A stretch of 19,036 nucleotides of DNA from Eledone cirrhosa (Eukaryota), in NCBI GenBank assembly GCA_964016885.1, contig CAXHJY010000233.1:1-19036 (forward strand), given 5' to 3'. Within the stretch, counting starts at the first letter, position 1; each line of letters opens with the position of its first letter. The translations under genes and the position numbers were made by a program. Shown here one piece after another: positions 389-9,611 of the stretch. Below the pieces are notes generated by a model. That model had not been told where the DNA came from. It made no database searches and saw nothing but the letters and a program-made list of their open reading frames with translations.

Positions 389-1098
389 TCGAGGTTAACT
401 TTGCTTTCATCCTTACGGGGTCGATACCAGTAATGTACTGGGTAATTTCTGGCCTTGTGCCAAAAGTATAAACAATTATATTACATTACATTATATTATA
501 TTAAGGCGGAGGATTGGCAGTATCGGTAGAGAGTCGGACGCCATGTTTCAAGCAGAGTTACGTCTCTTTACGGTCTGAGTCCAAGTCCCGTCGAGGTTAA
601 CTTTGCCTTTCACCCTTACGGGGTCGATAAAATAAAGTACCAGTAATACACTGGGTAATTGCTGGCCTTGTGTCAAAAGTAGAAACAATTATATTATATT
701 ATATCATATTATATTACATTATATTAAGTTATATTATATTATATTATATTATATTATATTATGTGAATTGGCAGTATCGGTAGAGGGTTGGACGCCATGC
801 TTTCTAGCATAGTTACGTCCCTTTACAAAGTTCAAATCCCGCCGAGGTTAACTTTGCCTTTCATCCTTACGGGGTCGATAAAATAAAGTACCAGTCACGC
901 ACTGGGGTCGATTTAATCGACTTTACTCTCTCCCAAAATTGCTGGCCTTGTGCCTATATAAGAAACCATTATATTCGAGGTTAACTTTGCCTTTCATCCT
1001 TACGGGGTCGATAAATTAAACTACCAGTAATGTACTGATATAATTGCTGGCCTTGTGCCAAAAGTAGAAATAATTACATTATATTATGTTATATTATA
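389..1098 (+). mobile_element. Tandem array of four copies of an octopus-type tRNA-derived SINE with (ATATT)n tails
   Basis: Copies at about 389-503, 505-762, 763-974 and 975-1098 share variants of GAGGTTAACTTTGCCTTTCATCCTTACGGGGTCGATA..CTGGCCTTGTG. Copies 2 and 3 have an A box (TGGCAGTATCGG) and a B-box-like GTTCAAATCC or variant. Confidence 0.9.
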
Positions 1099-1463
1099 AC
1101 ATGTACTAACATGTTGGACTAACGTACAAAGAAGTAACAATGTTATAGATTATTCAATACACTGAATATTATAACAAAATAATTGACAGCTCACAAAATG
1201 CAACTTCAGATTCAATCTTTCGATCTTCTCGTTAATAAGATAAAAAGGCGGTAGATTAGAATACCAATTTAAAGAATAATAGACAAGGAACATAATCGTA
1301 TAGCTAAATAATGTCATAGTTTTATGATTTAAACGGCCTGTTTAAATTGTAAAGGGTTAGGGTGGAAAAGGGGATCAAAGACATTGATGACATCTTACTG
1401 TTTGGGAAGTTTTCTTTGCGTTGAGTTTCTCATTATTCTATAAATTCTTATACATTCATGCTT

Positions 1464-1525
<62 letters not shown>

Positions 1526-1528
<3 letters not shown>

Positions 1529-2985
1529 TAGCGAGGTTTTTTATATGAAATCGTGTGTCGAAACAAATATTGTTATACTTGGGGAGGGTCATTTTTGTGT
1601 AATATTGCCAGAATTAATAACAGAACACACTCACTGTTTGGTTGGTTTTCGCTTCTGTGTCCTTTATATCGGTTAATTTAATTTTTTCGGTCCTCAATGT
1701 TACCATTGACTGACCAACGGTCAAAAATACAGATACAATATAGACACAACCACATATATATAGTCTAACAAAGTTCTTTCGTTCCACATCTACAACATCG
1801 TCAGTGGTGCTATTATGTTTCCTCCCGTTGCATTGTATCCCTACGCCATCTTTATTTAGTCTGTTTATTTATTTATTTATTTGTTTATTTTTTTGTCTTC
1901 TCTGCGCATGCATTTGCGTGTGTGTATTGTGTTTTGTTTGGTGTGTGTTCGTGTTTGGGTGACTGTGTATTGGTTATTGTATTCTATCTTAGTTTACTAG
2001 TGTGTGTTTATATGTGTTTGTTGTTATTGTGCTTGTGTATGTATTTATTTATTTAGACTTCTCTTAGGTCAGTGTTGTTTGTTTGGGTGTTGTTATTCCA
2101 TTCATTTTTTTCTGTTTAGCCTTGGCTTTCTAAGTTCTATTTCGCTGGCCTCTCTGTTTTGCCTATCTGCTGTGTTATTTCTATGTTTAGATATTATTCT
2201 AATTTCTATGTTGTCTATGTTACCGTCGTGTTGTTGTCTGGCATGTTCGTATAGTACTGAACCGTTTTTTCGTCCTTTTAGTTCCCCCCAGTGTTGGTCT
2301 ATCCTTTCACCTATGCTACGAGCTGTCTCGCCTAGGTATGTTGTTGTCATGTTTCTGCAAGTACCCTCTGTACATCTTATGCTATAGACTACGTTTCTAG
2401 TTTTACAGTTTATCTGGGGGTTTACTTTACATATGATACATTTCCTATTAGTACAGTGGGTTTTCTTAAAAGGGTAGGTTTTGCTGATCAGGGATTTTAT
2501 GGTGGTTCCTGGCTTTTCTACCACATTAATCTTTAAGTGGGTCTTTCTCGGGGCCTTTCTACACTGGTTAGCAAATTTCCCTCCAGGGGTAGCGTCCACA
2601 AATATGACACTCTGGTATCTCTGGTTGTCGTACCATGAGGTGGCTTTCCCTATCTTATGTCTAGCCCTATCTAAGCTATTCCATGATTTGCTCCTGTATA
2701 ATGAGCAAATTCCTTTCATGTCCAGTTCTATGAGGGTCTTATACTTCTCCGTGGCTCCTTCGTATACTCTAATTCTGTCTCTTTGGTTGTAGCCAGAGAA
2801 CTGCATTCGGTTGATGAAGTGTTGGATGTGTCTTTCCATTTCTGTTGGGTCGCACATGCGGGACTCGTTCTTCATCACTCGTACCAAGTCTGCGATCAGA
2901 ATATTAAACTTAGCACTACTGGACATTGCTGAGTTTTTTAGTATCAGGTATTTGGAGGCCATGGGTTTAGCATAGTGTGAGTGGA

Positions 2986-2988
<3 letters not shown>
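1526..2988 (-). mobile_element. 5'-truncated Penelope-like element (second family)
   Basis: Starts directly at the (TA)n tract at 2988-3022. Has a thumb + GIY-YIG frame, a CA-rich 3' UTR and a sense HHR at 1767-1808. The 3' end is either at the short TA run near 1753-1762 or at the (TA)n ending at 1525. Confidence 0.88.
1767..1808 (-). ncRNA. Minimal type I hammerhead ribozyme motif in a PLE 3' UTR
   Basis: ACCA-CTGACGA-T-GTT(gtagatgtgg)AAC-GAAA-G(AA)CT-T-TGTT. Intact core boxes, 3-bp stem II, 3/4-bp stem I. Confidence 0.7.

Positions 2989-2989
<1 letters not shown>
2102..2989 (-). CDS. PLE RT thumb/linker + GIY-YIG endonuclease, N-terminally truncated (tentatively Nematis/Neptune-like)
   Basis: The open frame extends upstream of the listed ORF as ILHSHYAKPMAS. 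Motifs: SGY, SVIFVDATPG, HCTNRKCIIC..C linker, NVVYSIRCTEGTC..YLGETARSIGERIDQH, LYEH, RQNREASEI..PRLN. The clade assignment is from recall only. Confidence 0.9.
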
Positions 2990-3022
<33 letters not shown>

Positions 3023-3026
<4 letters not shown>

Positions 3027-3295
3027 GATTTAGCTTCGAGCATAGCTGTATACAGATATGTATTGGAATTTTGTATTTCTAAAGAAATACGATATGTTTA
3101 TAAATAAACATTTAGAAAGCCGTGACTATGCAAAAACACCGCAGGCTATTGCCACCTGGCGGTGTCCGATCAGAAACAAGGGGGACAATCGTCGATGTAT
3201 TTCGAACTGAACTGCTTCTCATCAGGACGATCTCACCGGTTCATGCAACTGCTGGACTTGAAAACAGGCGAGAATCAATAGTTTTCTCATCTGAG
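3023..3295 (-). mobile_element. Short non-coding HHR-bearing unit between (TA)n tracts (PLE 3' end or retrozyme-like)
   Basis: About 270 nt, flanked by (TA)n on both sides, contains HHR 3188-3231, no recognisable coding sequence. Confidence 0.65.
3188..3231 (-). ncRNA. Minimal type I hammerhead ribozyme motif
   Basis: ATCGTC-CTGATGA-GAA(gcagttcag)TTC-GAAA-T(AC)AT-C-GACGAT. Perfect 6-bp stem I, intact core, AUC cleavage triplet. Confidence 0.88.
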
Positions 3296-3342
3296 TATAT
3301 ATATATATATATATATATACTCAGATGAGAAAACTATTGATT
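3273..3342. repeat. Perfect palindrome: 23-bp unique arms around (TA)12
   Basis: AATCAATAGTTTTCTCATCTGAG-(TA)12-CTCAGATGAGAAAACTATTGATT. Confidence 0.97.
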
Positions 3343-3676
3343 ATTTCTGAAGACGGCGTATGTATGAGTTAGGTATGTATATTTAATCTTGATAATTTGT
3401 ATAATTTTGTATAATTTTGTACATAGATCTGTTAAATATGCATACCAATTATAACACATATATACCCTAGAAACGATCGTTAAATAGTGAACTTTTTTTG
3501 TTTAATATAAGGAATTGTTTGTTCATTATTTGTTTAACATTTTATCTTGACTCTGTATACCATTTATCTTTCACCGAAATTGGATTTTCATTACATCTCT
3601 TCTTTCCATGATATCCGGAATACATTGAGTTCTTCATACGGATTGGACACTACCGTAAACTCTTGGTAGATTTATC

Positions 3677-3679
<3 letters not shown>
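3320..3679 (+). mobile_element. Short non-coding HHR-bearing unit between (TA)n tracts (PLE 3' end or retrozyme-like)
   Basis: About 360 nt, flanked by (TA)n, contains HHR 3342-3486 followed by a T-rich tail. Confidence 0.65.
3342..3486 (+). ncRNA. Type I hammerhead ribozyme motif with a 116-nt extended stem II
   Basis: TATTT-CTGAAGA (3347-3353)..GAAA (3470-3473)-C(GATC)GT-T-AAATA. The intervening arms pair as 3358-3371 with 3452-3465 and 3372-3386 with 3432-3446. Confidence 0.8.
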
Positions 3680-3772
<93 letters not shown>

Positions 3773-3807: not shown

Positions 3808-4015
3808 CTTTAAGTCGTTTGGAAGCCTCGACAATGCAAATGGGTAAATCTCCGGGTAACAAGGTCCGGTGGTCGAGAGAGAGATGTAAGTGGGTGTACG
3901 TTGAGATGCGTGGTGTGTATAAGATGTGTGAAATGTGTAGAATGAGGGAAGAGTATAAAGGTTAAAATAAAAATAACAACACAAGAGAGAGTTACCTTGG
4001 GAGAGATTTAATAGT

Positions 4016-4051
4016 CCCTATATATTTCGGATTCACATCCATCAACTGGGG
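4016..4051 (-). ncRNA. Degenerate type I hammerhead motif in the 3' UTR of the long PLE
   Basis: CCC-CAGTTGA-T-GGAT(GTGA)ATCC-GAAA-TATATA-GGG. All three stems are present, but there are two substitutions in the CUGANGA box. Confidence 0.6.
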
Positions 4052-4288
4052 TTTTTTCCGGGGTGGGGGAAAAGGTTGTCTGTCGGACAAGTCCGGAACA
4101 CGTCTTTCGCTGTTTGTTGTTTTGAATATCTGAGGTATTCGGCAGAGCGCGCGTGCGCGTGAAATGGGGTCGGTCGTACAGAGGTCAGCAGCCGAATGAG
4201 GGAGTGGGATGGCGCTAGCTGTCAGTCCATTCTCTGCCTGTTTGTTAAATGTTACTATGTGTGTGTGTGCGTGTGTTGTTGTCTCGCT

Positions 4289-4347
<59 letters not shown>

Positions 4348-4489
4348 TGTTGCCTTGTTCATCTGTATTGGCAGTGTAGTATGTTCGTATGGTAGAATGC
4401 TACTGTGTGTGTGTGCGTGTGTGTGTGTAGTTGTCTCGTTTGCGTGTGTGTGTGTGCGTGTGTTGTGTGTTGTTGCATCGCTTGTTAAC

Positions 4490-7114
4490 TTAAACCAGCC
4501 ATTTCATTTCGCTTCTCTCTGATCGGTTGTTTATTTGCGGTTGCAGTCGTTTGATAAAAAGCGCTTCCTTGATACGTAACGTGCCGACGTTTCTTTCAGT
4601 CGCTAGAATTGTGACAATGGGCCTTCCGTCTTTGTTTCCGCATTTGTCTATGTGTTTCCGGAAAGACGAGGCCCTGGTTTTAGTGTGTTCCTTGATCCGG
4701 ATGTGCAAAGGTCGAATTGTGCTACCTATGTAGTATTGGTTGCACCTGTCACATTCTATCTTATACACGACGTATGTGCGTAGGCAACAGTTAGCATGGC
4801 GTATCGGGCAGTCTCTGAGGGAGCATGCGTCAGTAGATTTTTCGGGTTTCCTGGAGAGGCATCTTCGCAGGGAGGGGCCTGAGTGGGCCAGGTGGATGTC
4901 GAGGCCCTCCCTCCGTATAGCCTTGCGGATAGCGTTGGTGGTTTTCTCGCCCAGGTGTGGCATTTTAAGGAAGCACTTGCCTTGGGTGCTTCTCTGTCTC
5001 TTGCGTCTGGTGTCTCCTATTCTGTCTGTGATCGAGGTAGGGTACCCGTTCGTCTCCAGCACCTCGAGGAATCGCTTGGTATGAGTGACACCACTCGCGG
5101 GATCGCTGCATCTGTTTTTGATTCGCGCGATCTCGTTCGTGATGTATCCTCTTTTGGCACTGTTAGGGACGGCGGACTTGTAGTGAACGAATAGGTCCCT
5201 GAAGGCTGCCTTTCTGTAGAAGTTGCAGTGGATCCCTCCTTGTTCCGTGATGTTGATTTGGAAGTCGAGGTGGGCAAGTGACCCGTCTTCGTTGGGGTGT
5301 TCAACACTGAAGTCAATGTTCTCGTCCGTGTTGTTGAACGTCTCATAGATTCTGTTCGCCGTGTCTTGGGAAGATGTGAGGATGAGGATATCGTCCACGT
5401 ATCTTGAGAAAAAGGCTACGGCGTTGGGGTGGCAGGCGTTGAGTGCCTTGCGTTCGAGGTTGTCCATGTAGGAGATCGCTAGCACACCTGATAGGCTTGA
5501 TCCCATGGGCATCCCGAGGTTTGTTGGTATATTTGGTCAAGGAATCCGAAGTAGGTGTTGTCGACGACGATGGATAGGAGTTGGTGGCTGTCAGTGGTGG
5601 TGAGCCCGAAGCAGTGTAGGTCGGTGGATTGGACGCGTTCCATTAGTATATTGACGGCCGGGAGTGCCGGGACCGAGGTGTAGAGAGCGACTACATCAAG
5701 GCTGAAGGCATATCTGTTATTCCTTCTGGTGTCGGGATCCATTTGATGCAGGCGCTTCAACATCTCCTCGGAGCTGTTAACGTGTCCCGGCAAGGTGTCT
5801 AAGATGGGATTGAGTATTCTGGCTAGGAGCCATGAAATTTTGTAGAGTGGTCCCTCCACGCTCGATACGATGGGCCTGATTTTCAGTTCGGGTCCCTGTT
5901 TGTGTGTTTTCACGAGGTGGTAGAAGGCGGGTAGTCTGCTGTTCCTCGTGAGGAGGTTGTATCTCAGCTTCTTCGGGAGCTTCCGCCGGTCGCAGATGTT
6001 GGTCCAGGCGGAGTTGATGTGTTCTTCTATCTGCGCGGGAGTGATTCCCGTGACCTTGGAGTAGAGGTTGTCATCGTCAAGGTGTTGGAGGGCCAGGGTG
6101 TTGTAGGCCTCTCTGCTGATGACGCAGAATTCTTTTCCCTTGTCGGAGGGGAAATAGATGAGGTTCTTCGATTTTAGGTTGGAGAGAGTGGTGAGTTGAG
6201 ATTTGGTGAGGTTATGTGTTGTGCGTGTGTGTGTGAGTTTGTGAAGTATATCCGAGATGGAGTGTTTTAGCCTGATGAGTTTAGTGTCGAGTTCGTGGTT
6301 GGTGGGTGGGGGGTGGAGTGGGTTGTCGGGGTGGTAAGTGGGGAACTTGGGGTGGGTTGTGTCGGCGCTGTTATTATCTGTGGCGCTGTTGATAGCGGTC
6401 ACCCATTTAAGTTGGTAAGCGGCTCGACAAAAGTTGACCTCGATGTTGAGTTTGAGTCTGTCGTCGAGACGTTGTGTGACGATGAACTTAGGTCCGAGGT
6501 GTAGGAGTTTCAGCTCGTCGCTCGTGAGAGTGCCGGTTAGGTTGGTGACCAGGTGCGTCGCATCGTTGAGGTATGGCTCGGTGTTGGTGGTTGCGGCGGT
6601 GGCGGTTGTTAAGTTGTTGTTTTCCACGTGGTTCTGGTCCGTCTGTTCGTTAGTGTCGATGTTCTCGTTGTGGCGTTTCGACAAGATCCACTCATATTTT
6701 CGCTTGAGCCGTTTTTTCTCGTATTGGACTCTGGAGTGGTAGCACTGGTCGATTGCTTTAGTGATTTTTAGGAGCAAGTCTCCGGGTGCTATAGGCAGTC
6801 GATGTGTCCGCTCTGAGAGTGTCCACTTATGGACGTGTAATTGGCGGTTGAGTTGTCTCAGGATCTGTTTAATACACGTGCGATGTATGCGGTTAGTGGT
6901 GTTTTGGAAGGCTGGTGTACGTAGGCTTACTGGTAAGCGGATGTTCTTGATGGTGTTGGGGATGACATCGTTTTTTTAGGCAGCGTTTCAGGAAAATAAT
7001 TTGGCAGCCAGCGTTGGCCCATTTCTCCGACAGTCTAAACAGTTCCCTTACGGATGCAAACAATTCCTGGCTCAGGTGTAAGGATAAGAGAGTATTGAAG
7101 TTTGCTTGAAGCAT
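4490..7114 (-). pseudogene. PLE reverse transcriptase / GIY-YIG endonuclease polyprotein (about 874 aa) with two 1-nt frameshifts
   Basis: ATG at 7114 gives MLQANF..IFLKRCLK. An extra A in the A7 run (6971-6977) shifts into NDVIPNTIKNIRLP.., which is continuous with ORF 5479-6777 (PSDKG, FYHLVKTHK, IRPIVS, FSLDVVALYTSVP). A 1-nt deletion near 5512 (YQQTSG|PMGSSLSG) shifts into ORF 4490-5512 (RYVDDIL, HLDF, FYRK, VVYKIECDRCNQYYIGST..RIKEH, EALFI..P.IN). Confidence 0.93.
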
Positions 7115-7125
7115 TGTGGAACAAT

Positions 7126-7143
7126 AAGTAAATATCAAAGATA

Positions 7144-7197
<54 letters not shown>
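7126..7197. repeat. Imperfect palindrome: 20-bp arms around (AT)16
   Basis: 7126-7145 and 7178-7197 are complementary at 17/20 positions (..TCAAAGATACG / CGTGTCTTTGA..). Confidence 0.8.
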
Positions 7198-8029: not shown

Positions 8030-8600
8030 AATAAGATAAGTTGTAAGGCCTTAAACAAGTCCCAGATAACGTAGTCGTATGCCCTTTCCAGGTCAACGAA
8101 ACAAGCATACACCTCTTGGCAATACTCGCACAATATCTCGAAGACATGTGAATATTTAGTCGGTTGTGCTTCATCTGAGACGAAAACCCCACTGTTCGTC
8201 TGCTACCTTAGACTTGACAATATCCCTAAATCTCTTTGTTAGACACTTATTGTAGACTTTCCCAGCGAGGCTTAACTATAATTGGAGCAATCTCTTCTGT
8301 CTCCCTTTTTGAAAAATTGGATTATTACTACCGATTGCCATTGCTTTGGTGCCTTTCTAGAGTTCCAGGCCATCCAGGATACGTGAGTCAGGCAGAAGAT
8401 AACTTCGCTACGTAAGGCTTTTAACATCTCGGGCAAAATGTTATCCCCTTCAGAGGCCTTGCAACGTTTGAGCGTTTTAATTGCTCTGGAGACCTCAGCA
8501 TCCAAGAATTTAGCAATCGCTCTTAGATTCACCTCATTTGCGTTTGGTGGCGCCTATTCGGATGTAGCAATTGCGATTTAATAATGACAAAAAGACTGGC
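8030..8600 (-). pseudogene. Decayed RTE-clade LINE reverse transcriptase fragment
   Basis: KA.EGDNILPEMLK..PKQW..FKKGDRRDCSNY (ORF 8272-8532), then SLAGKVY..EQWGF and VYACFVDLERAYD (about 8065-8112), with frameshifts and stops. Confidence 0.88.
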
Positions 8601-8746
8601 GGTTGACCTGCGTCCCGTTCTGTGAGACATGTGATAGACGTAAAATGGTTGTGTATTCCTATACACCAAAGAGGGTCCAGAAAGAACTATGGTGGTGGAA
8701 TTTGGGATACAAGTCCCTGGCTGCAAAATGTGCTATGGAATGGATC

Positions 8747-9154
<408 letters not shown>

Positions 9155-9254
9155 GGGGGGTAGAACACTGGAAGGTAATATCCGTAGTGGTAGAGCACTC
9201 AGTCCATGGGACGAGTTAGGTAGAAGTGGTTACACAACAGTTAGTTCACCATAC

Positions 9255-9292
9255 CGGAAACAATTGTTTCACCTTAGCGGATCCTCAGCTCG
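9255..9292 (-). ncRNA. Hammerhead-like motif, left arm of the inverted repeat
   Basis: CGAG-CTGAGGA-TCCGCTAAGGT-GAAA-C(AATT)GT-T-TCCG. Core intact; stem I is imperfect and stem II is only 2 bp. Confidence 0.65.
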
Positions 9293-9303
9293 TAAAGTCA
9301 TTA

Positions 9304-9342
9304 CGAGCTGAGGATCTGCTAGAGGTCAAACAATTGTTCTCG
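9304..9342 (+). ncRNA. Hammerhead-like motif, right arm of the inverted repeat (GAAA changed to CAAA)
   Basis: CGAG-CTGAGGA-TCTGCTAGAGGT-CAAA-C(AATT)GT-T-CTCG. Perfect 4-bp stem I, but core G12 is mutated. Confidence 0.55.
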
Positions 9343-9374
9343 GTATGGTGAACTAACTGTTGTGTAACCACTTC

Positions 9375-9408
<34 letters not shown>

Positions 9409-9489
9409 ACGAAGGAAGTGTGGTAAGGAACCAGGTGGACCATAACGCACCAGAGTACTCGATACTTTGGGTAGTAGAGTGGGTAATAG

Positions 9490-9611
9490 GAAAAGAGTCA
9501 GGACCCCAACAGGTGAGCTCCGGCCGTTTCGATAGCTAGTTCTGAACTCCTAAGTTCAGAACTAGCTGTCGAAACGACCGGAGCTCAGCCGTAGGGATCC
9601 TGGCTCTTTTC
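9490..9611. repeat. Inverted repeat (59-bp arms, 4-nt spacer CCTA)
   Basis: 9490-9548 pairs with 9553-9611 with a few mismatches. The right arm ends at (CA)n. Confidence 0.93.

What the first reader, a model, noticed from the sequence alone, without database searches (positions are those of the whole stretch)
3273..3342. Two different HHR units joined head-to-head by a perfect 23-bp inverted repeat centred on (TA)12
Seen: reading outward from the (TA)n, both strands begin CTCAGATGAGAAAACTATTGATT and then diverge into unrelated sequences, each with its own HHR. On the right, the copied segment ends exactly where HHR stem I begins. Inference: self-complementary (TA)n folded back after nicking, was extended by copying the neighbouring DNA, and was then joined to the incoming cDNA. 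This would be a footprint of how PLE 5' ends attach in (TA)n.
Basis: partly seen in the sequence, partly recalled or inferred. Interest (0 to 1): 0.7.

Follow-up and report, generated by a model that had tools for sequence, protein, structure and literature searches.

The report
Fold-back scar at retroelement front end
A 23-base mirror copy of the neighbouring DNA sits across a short TA repeat at the front end of a young Penelope-like jumping gene; it was likely made when the cut chromosome end folded back on itself during insertion, a rare by-product already described for human L1 elements and not the usual way this family attaches.

Summary
The palindrome is real: 23-bp perfect arms (3273-3295, 3320-3342) round (TA)12. 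The 23-mer belongs to the left unit, an old, 5'-truncated hammerhead repeat (family A). The right arm repeats this copy's own substitutions, and the exact 23-mer occurs only here in the 3-Gb genome, so it was copied on the spot. The right unit is the end repeat (pLTR) of a young Penelope-like element with Hydra-clade protein motifs (family B). Its common 5' end is at 3340 and overlaps the copy by 3 bases (ATT). The general claim is not: of 79 B 5' ends taken in genome order, 69 join an inverted second pLTR copy, 8 sit on TA, 2 abut another repeat and none has a flank copy. Flank mirror copies do recur at about 0.6% of sampled TA tracts, with no shown enrichment at B 5' ends (1/104 against 7/1166, p = 0.5). 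No reads cover the junction. The same outcome is published for L1, and this scan noted it before on other DNA, in this genome and others.

The parts
3024..3295 (-). Family A unit: old, 5'-truncated copy of an abundant hammerhead repeat (about 340-bp unit, seen in tandem and in inverted pairs; no ORF was looked for); the pre-existing flank
   Evidence: 39 other best places are 86-91% identical and most match from query base 3; most of the 29 loci read continue upstream with family sequence; tandem copies 342 bp apart at C2:78918982/78919324
3187..3231 (-). Type I hammerhead of family A, predicted cleavage after AUC at 3194; slightly decayed in this copy
   Evidence: motif scan; family alignment; the stretch does not fold better than shuffles, z = -0.1
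3273..3295 (-). Left arm = template; the 5'-most 23 bases left of the family A copy, 4 differences from the family majority, 2 of them not shared with the nearest relative L004
3296..3319 (.). (TA)12, centre of the palindrome; inferred hairpin tip
3320..3342 (+). Right arm = exact inverted copy of the flank; 3320-3339 is filler foreign to family B, 3340-3342 (ATT) is shared with B's 5' end
   Evidence: exact 23-mer found only at the two arms in G000; none of 29 other B loci carries it
3340..3679 (+). Family B pLTR, solo, from the common 5' end to the long 3' end; 1 difference in 340 bp from its nearest copy
   Evidence: direct repeats about 6.2 kb apart flank an 813-aa RT/GIY-YIG-type ORF in L093 and L094
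3340..3489 (+). Hammerhead-like motif of B: long helix II, palindromic helix III (3472-3481), predicted GUU cleavage triplet; activity untested
3680..3769 (.). (TA)45 at the 3' end of B; inferred primer end for reverse transcription
   Evidence: B 3' ends run into TA in 26 of the 29 other loci, the other 3 continue into the element's ORF region
7135..7188 (.). Second, shorter junction of the same geometry: 9-base filler plus GA microhomology (7135-7145) mirrors 7178-7188 (10 of 11) across (TA)16, at the truncated 5' end of another young PLE (3808-7136, minus strand)
   Evidence: RVT_1 and GIY-YIG hits on 4493-5533

Best explanation
The right arm is an on-the-spot inverted copy of the left flank, likely made while a young Penelope-like element (family B) was inserting into this TA tract. 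Inferred steps: (1) the element's endonuclease opened both strands in the TA tract; (2) the right-hand end primed reverse transcription back to the RNA's usual 5' end, giving a cDNA ending in the complement of ATT; (3) the left-hand end, which in most B insertions primes a second cDNA and so gives the head-to-head inverted pLTR, instead folded back on its self-complementary TA and was extended 23 bases along its own strand; (4) the extended end was released and annealed to the cDNA end through ATT, then filled and ligated. Shown: direction of copying, recency, the microhomology, the rarity. Not shown: the order of steps, the polymerase, and that copying and insertion were one event.
For: 23-mer position native to family A, absent from family B. 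Exact 23-mer only at the two arms genome-wide. Only two A copies match a relaxed pattern: the window and L004. L004 shares 9 of the window copy's 22 differences from the family majority (27 other copies share 0-3) and starts at about the same truncation point, yet has no TA tract or second arm there; two changes in the 23-mer are not in L004 and both are in the right arm. B copy differs at 1 of 340 bases from its nearest relative. 678 B starts in the genome are not preceded by the native C. Same geometry at another B 5' end (L211, about 16-base copy), at a second PLE in this window (7135-7188) and in front of cut-short repeats at L044, L161 and L012. L152 shows a 68-base mirror of an interrupted TA tract right at a B 5' end. 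Flank copies lying between two TA tracts (L156 twice, L157, L176) show that a TA end can be mirrored without a cDNA end next to the copy. The same outcome is reported for L1, primed by 2-bp TA/AT self-annealing (10.1101/2024.12.14.628481, passages).
Against: No enrichment shown at B 5' ends: 1 of 104 TA tracts near a B 5' end (found by eye; the detector gave 0) against 7 of 1166 other tracts, Fisher p = 0.50. A test for hidden fold-backs inside interrupted TA tracts was not significant: 3 of 13 at B 5' ends, 1 of 25 at B 3' ends (p = 0.11), 51 of 361 elsewhere (p = 0.41). A 3-base microhomology in AT-rich DNA can be chance. The window is a whole 19-kb unplaced contig and no reads cover 3277-3334 in a way that bridges the junction. 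No empty allele was found.
Confidence: 0.62

Rival explanations
1. Same event, other primer: the cDNA 3' end annealed to the ATT 23 bases into the left flank, was extended back through the flank into the TA, and was then joined to the host end through TA pairing.
For: Gives the identical product. R2 transgene junctions include snap-backs in which the cDNA 3' end primes on cDNA or, less often, on nearby target DNA (PMC11371274, passages).
Against: Needs the 5'-ending strand of the flank exposed as template (inference). Four flank copies sit between TA tracts with no element 5' end adjoining the copy (L156 twice, L157, L176).
Confidence: 0.17
2. The fold-back copy is a scar of an independent break at the TA tract (cruciform cleavage and microhomology-mediated repair), and the B pLTR was joined to it by a later insertion or deletion.
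For: TA repeats are break hotspots repaired by MMEJ (PMC13645644, passages); 5-34-bp fold-back duplications form at plain breaks in yeast (PMC11724301, abstract and section 15); no enrichment at B 5' ends.
Against: The copy ends on B's common 5' end with no TA between them, in a family whose ends otherwise lie on TA or on its own inverted copy; L211 repeats this. The comparison tracts come from element-dense loci and are themselves mostly insertion sites (inference).
Confidence: 0.12
3. Sequencing or assembly artefact (local fold-back chimera) on a small unplaced contig.
For: The contig is 19,036 bp, the whole window; no bridging reads.
Against: The mirror is only 23 bases long and ends on a biologically defined point; like junctions occur on the large contigs C1, C3, C6, C10 and C20.
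Confidence: 0.07
4. Remnant of an old head-to-head A/A insertion whose right half was later cut down to 23 bases by the B insertion.
For: Family A does form inverted pairs, and one B/B pair has TA at its centre (L091).
Against: The A copy is 8% diverged from the family majority (22 of 280 columns), yet the arms are identical and share changes missing from the nearest relative.
Confidence: 0.02

Closest known systems
L1 insertion with inverted duplication of genomic DNA on the reciprocal end (10.1101/2024.12.14.628481 latest version, Fig. 4D,E passages; PMC11702581 section 7)
   Same: Free host end self-anneals through a small hairpin (TA/AT in their Fig. 4D), primes synthesis on its own flank, and is then joined to the reverse-transcribed end.
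   Different: There: L1 in human cells and cancers, with a target-site duplication visible. Here: a Penelope-like element in an invertebrate-type assembly, a (TA)12 centre, a 23-base copy, any duplication hidden in TA.
Local fold-back inversions at double-strand breaks in yeast (PMC11724301)
   Same: Short (mostly 5-34 bp) templated inverted copy of the flank, captured by the other end with 0-5 bases of microhomology.
   Different: No retroelement; the hairpin there has a 41-nt loop between natural 10-bp inverted repeats, not a TA tract.
Head-to-head insertion units of endonuclease-bearing Penelope-like elements (PMC8557442, PMC3846280)
   Same: Family B follows this layout in 69 of 79 5' ends, has two preferred 3' ends and targets (TA)n.
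   Different: At this junction the inverted arm is host flank, not element sequence; I found no such case in the passages read.
R2 'snap-back' 5' junctions (PMC11371274)
   Same: Inverted sequence from cDNA or nearby target DNA at the 5' junction.
   Different: Attributed to priming by the cDNA end; engineered R2 in rDNA; no microsatellite.

Membership tests
Inverted duplication of flank at the reciprocal end of a target-primed insertion (L1 type) | Inverted arm derives from host flank, not from the element | tested here: met
Inverted duplication of flank at the reciprocal end of a target-primed insertion (L1 type) | Self-annealing homology at the turn | tested here: met
   (TA)12 is self-complementary and is the exact centre
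Inverted duplication of flank at the reciprocal end of a target-primed insertion (L1 type) | [quoted passage not shown] | tested here: met
   3-base overlap with B's common 5' end
Inverted duplication of flank at the reciprocal end of a target-primed insertion (L1 type) | Copy and insertion arose in one event (empty site known; target-site duplication) | tested here: inconclusive
   no empty allele in the assembly; a duplication would be hidden in TA; both features are recent
Endonuclease-bearing Penelope-like element (family B) | pLTRs flanking one ORF with RT and C-terminal GIY-YIG-type domain | tested here: inconclusive
   pLTR-ORF-pLTR in L093, L094; DKT, FDID, YRDD and YIGAT motifs; but no Pfam family at E 0.01, so domains rest on motifs
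Endonuclease-bearing Penelope-like element (family B) | Inverted 5' copy and optional longer 3' end | tested here: met
   69 of 79 5' ends; two preferred 3' ends about 140 bp apart
Hydra clade of PLEs (PMC8557442 section 11) | RWK-like motif, DKT, CxCx5C linker, CxxC and CxH round the conserved E and N, (TA)n target | tested here: met
   DKTG, CNCRNKTNC and CRLC; RWR and a C-terminal CNH read by eye in the translation; TA targets
Hydra clade of PLEs (PMC8557442 section 11) | Placement in an RT tree; canonical hammerhead; length generally under 3 kb | tested here: inconclusive
   no tree built; B's motif lacks the G10.1-C11.1 pair; the repeat unit is about 6.2 kb
Type I hammerhead ribozyme | Self-cleavage | not testable with these tools
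   core letters present in both units; no assay
Non-LTR retrozyme (family A) | Tandem non-coding units each with a type I hammerhead | tested here: inconclusive
   one tandem pair seen and a hammerhead core; coding capacity and hammerheads in each tandem unit not examined

The most novel reading that the evidence does not exclude
TA-targeting Penelope-like elements open both strands, and the free TA end has three competing fates: priming a second cDNA (head-to-head pLTR, about 87%), direct joining (about 10%), or folding back on itself. Many 'direct' joins would be invisible fold-backs that stay inside the TA tract, so insertion itself would lengthen and mirror TA microsatellites, and the same scar would mark short non-coding repeats moved by the same enzyme.
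Probability: 0.2. Interest if true: 0.55.

Novelty: new member of a known kind. Interest (0 to 1): 0.3.

Why it matters
How Penelope-like elements finish an insertion is still open (PMC8557442 and PMC11167929 say so). This junction catches the host end opposite the cDNA acting as a primer on itself, which fits a double-strand opening in which both ends can prime and explains why the usual product is a head-to-head pair. It is a rare side outcome of a kind already published for L1, so it adds a clue and a countable class, not a new mechanism.

Tried and rejected
Rfam scan: no hammerhead family among 59 matches at E up to 1, nearly all sub-threshold miRNA hairpin matches; not informative. Reads: 4 contig runs and 3 reduced-representation runs laid on 2900-3760; the tool skips 3288-3327 as repeat and nothing bridges the junction; the loose ends shown at 3340 are B's native upstream sequence from other copies; neither support nor refutation. 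First palindrome detector and the second both missed L211 because its TA tract is interrupted, so their counts are lower bounds, 9 of 16 hits were dropped (3 family-B-derived, 6 simple-repeat matches). Cap-derived G at B 5' ends: 2 of 20 junctions against 9 of 380 background bases, too few to use. Hidden fold-backs by CA/TG polarity switch: not significant. C1656 (L004, L126-L129) shares several modules with the window in similar order but differs too much to serve as the empty allele. Pfam gave no hit for the B ORF and BLASTP to the window's other PLE gave nothing significant. PMC9977147 passages held nothing on flank copies. Six literature searches listed no paper on flank fold-back copies at PLE junctions; that covers only the held open library and these terms.

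Full report
Observation. The arms 3273-3295 and 3320-3342 are exact reverse complements over 23 bases round (TA)12, and pairing ends at the next base. Of the 11 TA tracts listed for the window, this one scored 24 of 25 flank matches, 7146-7177 scored 18, and the rest 5-12. The window is the whole of contig C260 (19,036 bp) in a 3.0-Gb assembly.

Left unit (family A). A search with 3030-3295 gave 3276 first-look candidates, 40 scored; other copies are 86-91% identical and most match from query base 3. In most of the 29 other loci read, family sequence continues upstream of the 23-mer position, so the window copy is 5'-truncated and the 23-mer is internal family A sequence. The window's version differs from the family majority at 4 of 23 places. 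A relaxed pattern found only the window and L004. L004 shares 9 of the window copy's 22 differences from the majority, the other 27 aligned copies 0-3 (L021 was left out as a duplicate of L020), and it starts at about the same point but has no TA tract or second arm there. Two changes in the 23-mer are absent from L004 and present in both arms. The exact 23-mer occurs twice in the genome, at the two arms. I infer that the right arm was copied from the left arm here, after this copy had aged.

Right unit (family B). Copies are 98-99% identical and match from base 13-19 of the query, in truth from 3340; the window copy differs from L034 at one base beyond the junction. Direct repeats of the unit about 6.2 kb apart flank an 813-aa ORF in L093 and L094. 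Pfam gave no hit, but the motifs match those listed for the Hydra clade in PMC8557442 section 11; no tree was built. None of 29 other B loci has the 23-mer; only ATT is shared.

How B 5' ends usually join. 678 places start like B without the native preceding C. I classified the first 100 listed (contigs C1 and C2), which are 80 insertions: 20 are pairs of opposite-strand matches 19-28 bp apart (8 read in sequence; 12 inferred from coordinates) and 60 are single matches, all read. One is an internal pLTR (L314) and was dropped. Of 79: 69 join an inverted copy of the pLTR, 8 sit directly on TA, 2 follow another short repeat (L289, L307), 0 have a flank copy. Starts preceded by the native C were excluded by the pattern. 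Both outer ends of the head-to-head units lie on TA and stop at one of two preferred points, which suggests that both host ends prime a cDNA; very short inverted pieces of 10-50 bases look like second cDNAs that stopped early. Head-to-head pLTR units are known (PMC8557442, PMC3846280; passages).

Does the flank mirror recur? I enriched for B 5' ends close to TA and ran a detector on 1270 distinct TA tracts from loci L004-L286, leaving out 8 loci that are the window itself. It gave 16 hits: 3 family-B-derived, 6 simple-repeat matches, and 7 real flank copies (L012, L044, L156 twice, L157, L161, L176; matched arms of about 10 to over 40 bases), all among the 1166 tracts not within 45 bp of a B 5' end. 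Three random re-pairings of flanks gave 2, 5 and 7 hits, of which 11 were B-derived, 2 simple repeats and 1 a shared repeat. By eye there is one more, L211, where a copy of about 16 bases joins a B 5' end directly, as in the window. That makes 1 of 104 against 7 of 1166, p = 0.50: no enrichment is shown, although the comparison tracts come from element-dense loci. Three of the seven lead straight into cut-short repeats that end in TA (L044, L161, L012; two look like SINEs, a label from recall), and four lie between TA tracts, three of them within about 200 bp of a B copy. L152 has a 68-base mirror of an interrupted TA tract at a B 5' end, but a wider test for such hidden mirrors was not significant. 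The window holds a second, shorter case: the young PLE at 3808-7136 (RVT_1 and GIY-YIG) matches its family only from 7136; the 9 bases before it plus GA mirror 7178-7188 at 10 of 11 places, and that sequence is native to the older unit on the other side. The 18-of-21 similarity there is partly chance.

Reads. Four contig runs and three reduced-representation runs were laid on 2900-3760; the tool skips 3288-3327 and nothing bridges the junction. The junction is therefore unconfirmed by reads.

Mechanism. Best reading (0.62): during B's insertion the free host end folded back on its TA, was extended 23 bases on its own strand, and was joined to the cDNA end through ATT, in place of priming the usual second cDNA. 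Copying primed by the cDNA end gives the same product (0.17); an independent TA break (0.12), an artefact (0.07) and an old A/A pair (0.02) are less likely. Direction, recency, microhomology and rarity are shown; order of steps and enzyme are inferred.

Comparison with the literature. An inverted duplication of genomic DNA on the reciprocal end of an L1 insertion, primed by TA/AT self-annealing, is described in 10.1101/2024.12.14.628481 (passages of the latest version; passages and section 7 of PMC11702581). Short fold-back duplications at breaks are described in yeast (PMC11724301, abstract and section 15), snap-back junctions for R2 (PMC11371274, passages), and TA fragility with MMEJ in PMC13645644 (passages). 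A purified PLE protein cuts and extends both strands (PMC11167929, parts 1-2 of 4). PLE hammerhead features come from PMC4209133 (passages) and the retrozyme definition from 10.64898/2026.07.22.740005 (part 1 of 5). Six searches listed nothing on flank copies at PLE junctions. I opened no supplements; those of PMC8557442 (Hydra sequences and hammerheads) and of the L1 preprint may bear on clade assignment and on arm lengths. Earlier notes of this scan describe like cases on other DNA; they are unchecked AI notes, and one gave me the L1 paper.

Verdict. Real, recent and mechanistically readable, but a rare by-product of a known kind; interest 0.3.

Noticed in passing
window 7135-7188: Second TA-centred flank copy (9-base filler plus GA) at the truncated 5' end of another young PLE; the truncation falls at the point where that family's pLTR ends.
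   Followed up: yes
window 3337-3343; L093:1289-1295: B's common 5' end lies at the A of TCATT, which resembles a polymerase II initiator (recalled), just below an AATAAA; the fixed end may be a transcription start, unrelated to hammerhead cleavage.
   Followed up: partly
window 3347-3473: Hammerhead-like motif with a 116-nt helix II region, no G10.1-C11.1 pair and a GUU triplet, conserved across 74 distinct family copies.
   Followed up: partly
L044:601-660, L161:1068-1130, L012:2063-2110: TA-centred flank copies that run straight into cut-short non-B repeats ending in TA, suggesting the same scar for short non-coding repeats.
   Followed up: partly
L289, L307: The short repeat also seen at window 500-1100 ends exactly at B's common 5' end in two independent loci.
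   Followed up: no
L036, L179, L189, L212, L227: Repeated short restarts of the first 15-60 bases of the B pLTR at 5' junctions, as if copying was attempted several times.
   Followed up: no
L004 (C1656:89237-91290) and window 1299-1525, 3022-3292, 8556-8767, 9135-9565: Another small contig carries four of the window's modules in similar order at 91-97% identity without the PLE insertions; shared ancestry or a composite repeat, unresolved.
   Followed up: partly
window 9227-9372 and 9515-9586: Two further long hairpins; the first holds a hammerhead-like core on the minus strand (9288-9267).
   Followed up: no
window 1526-2987: Another PLE-like 3' fragment (294-aa open frame, minus strand, no Pfam hit) between TA tracts; the window stacks at least five unrelated units in TA between 1467 and 7497.
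   Followed up: partly
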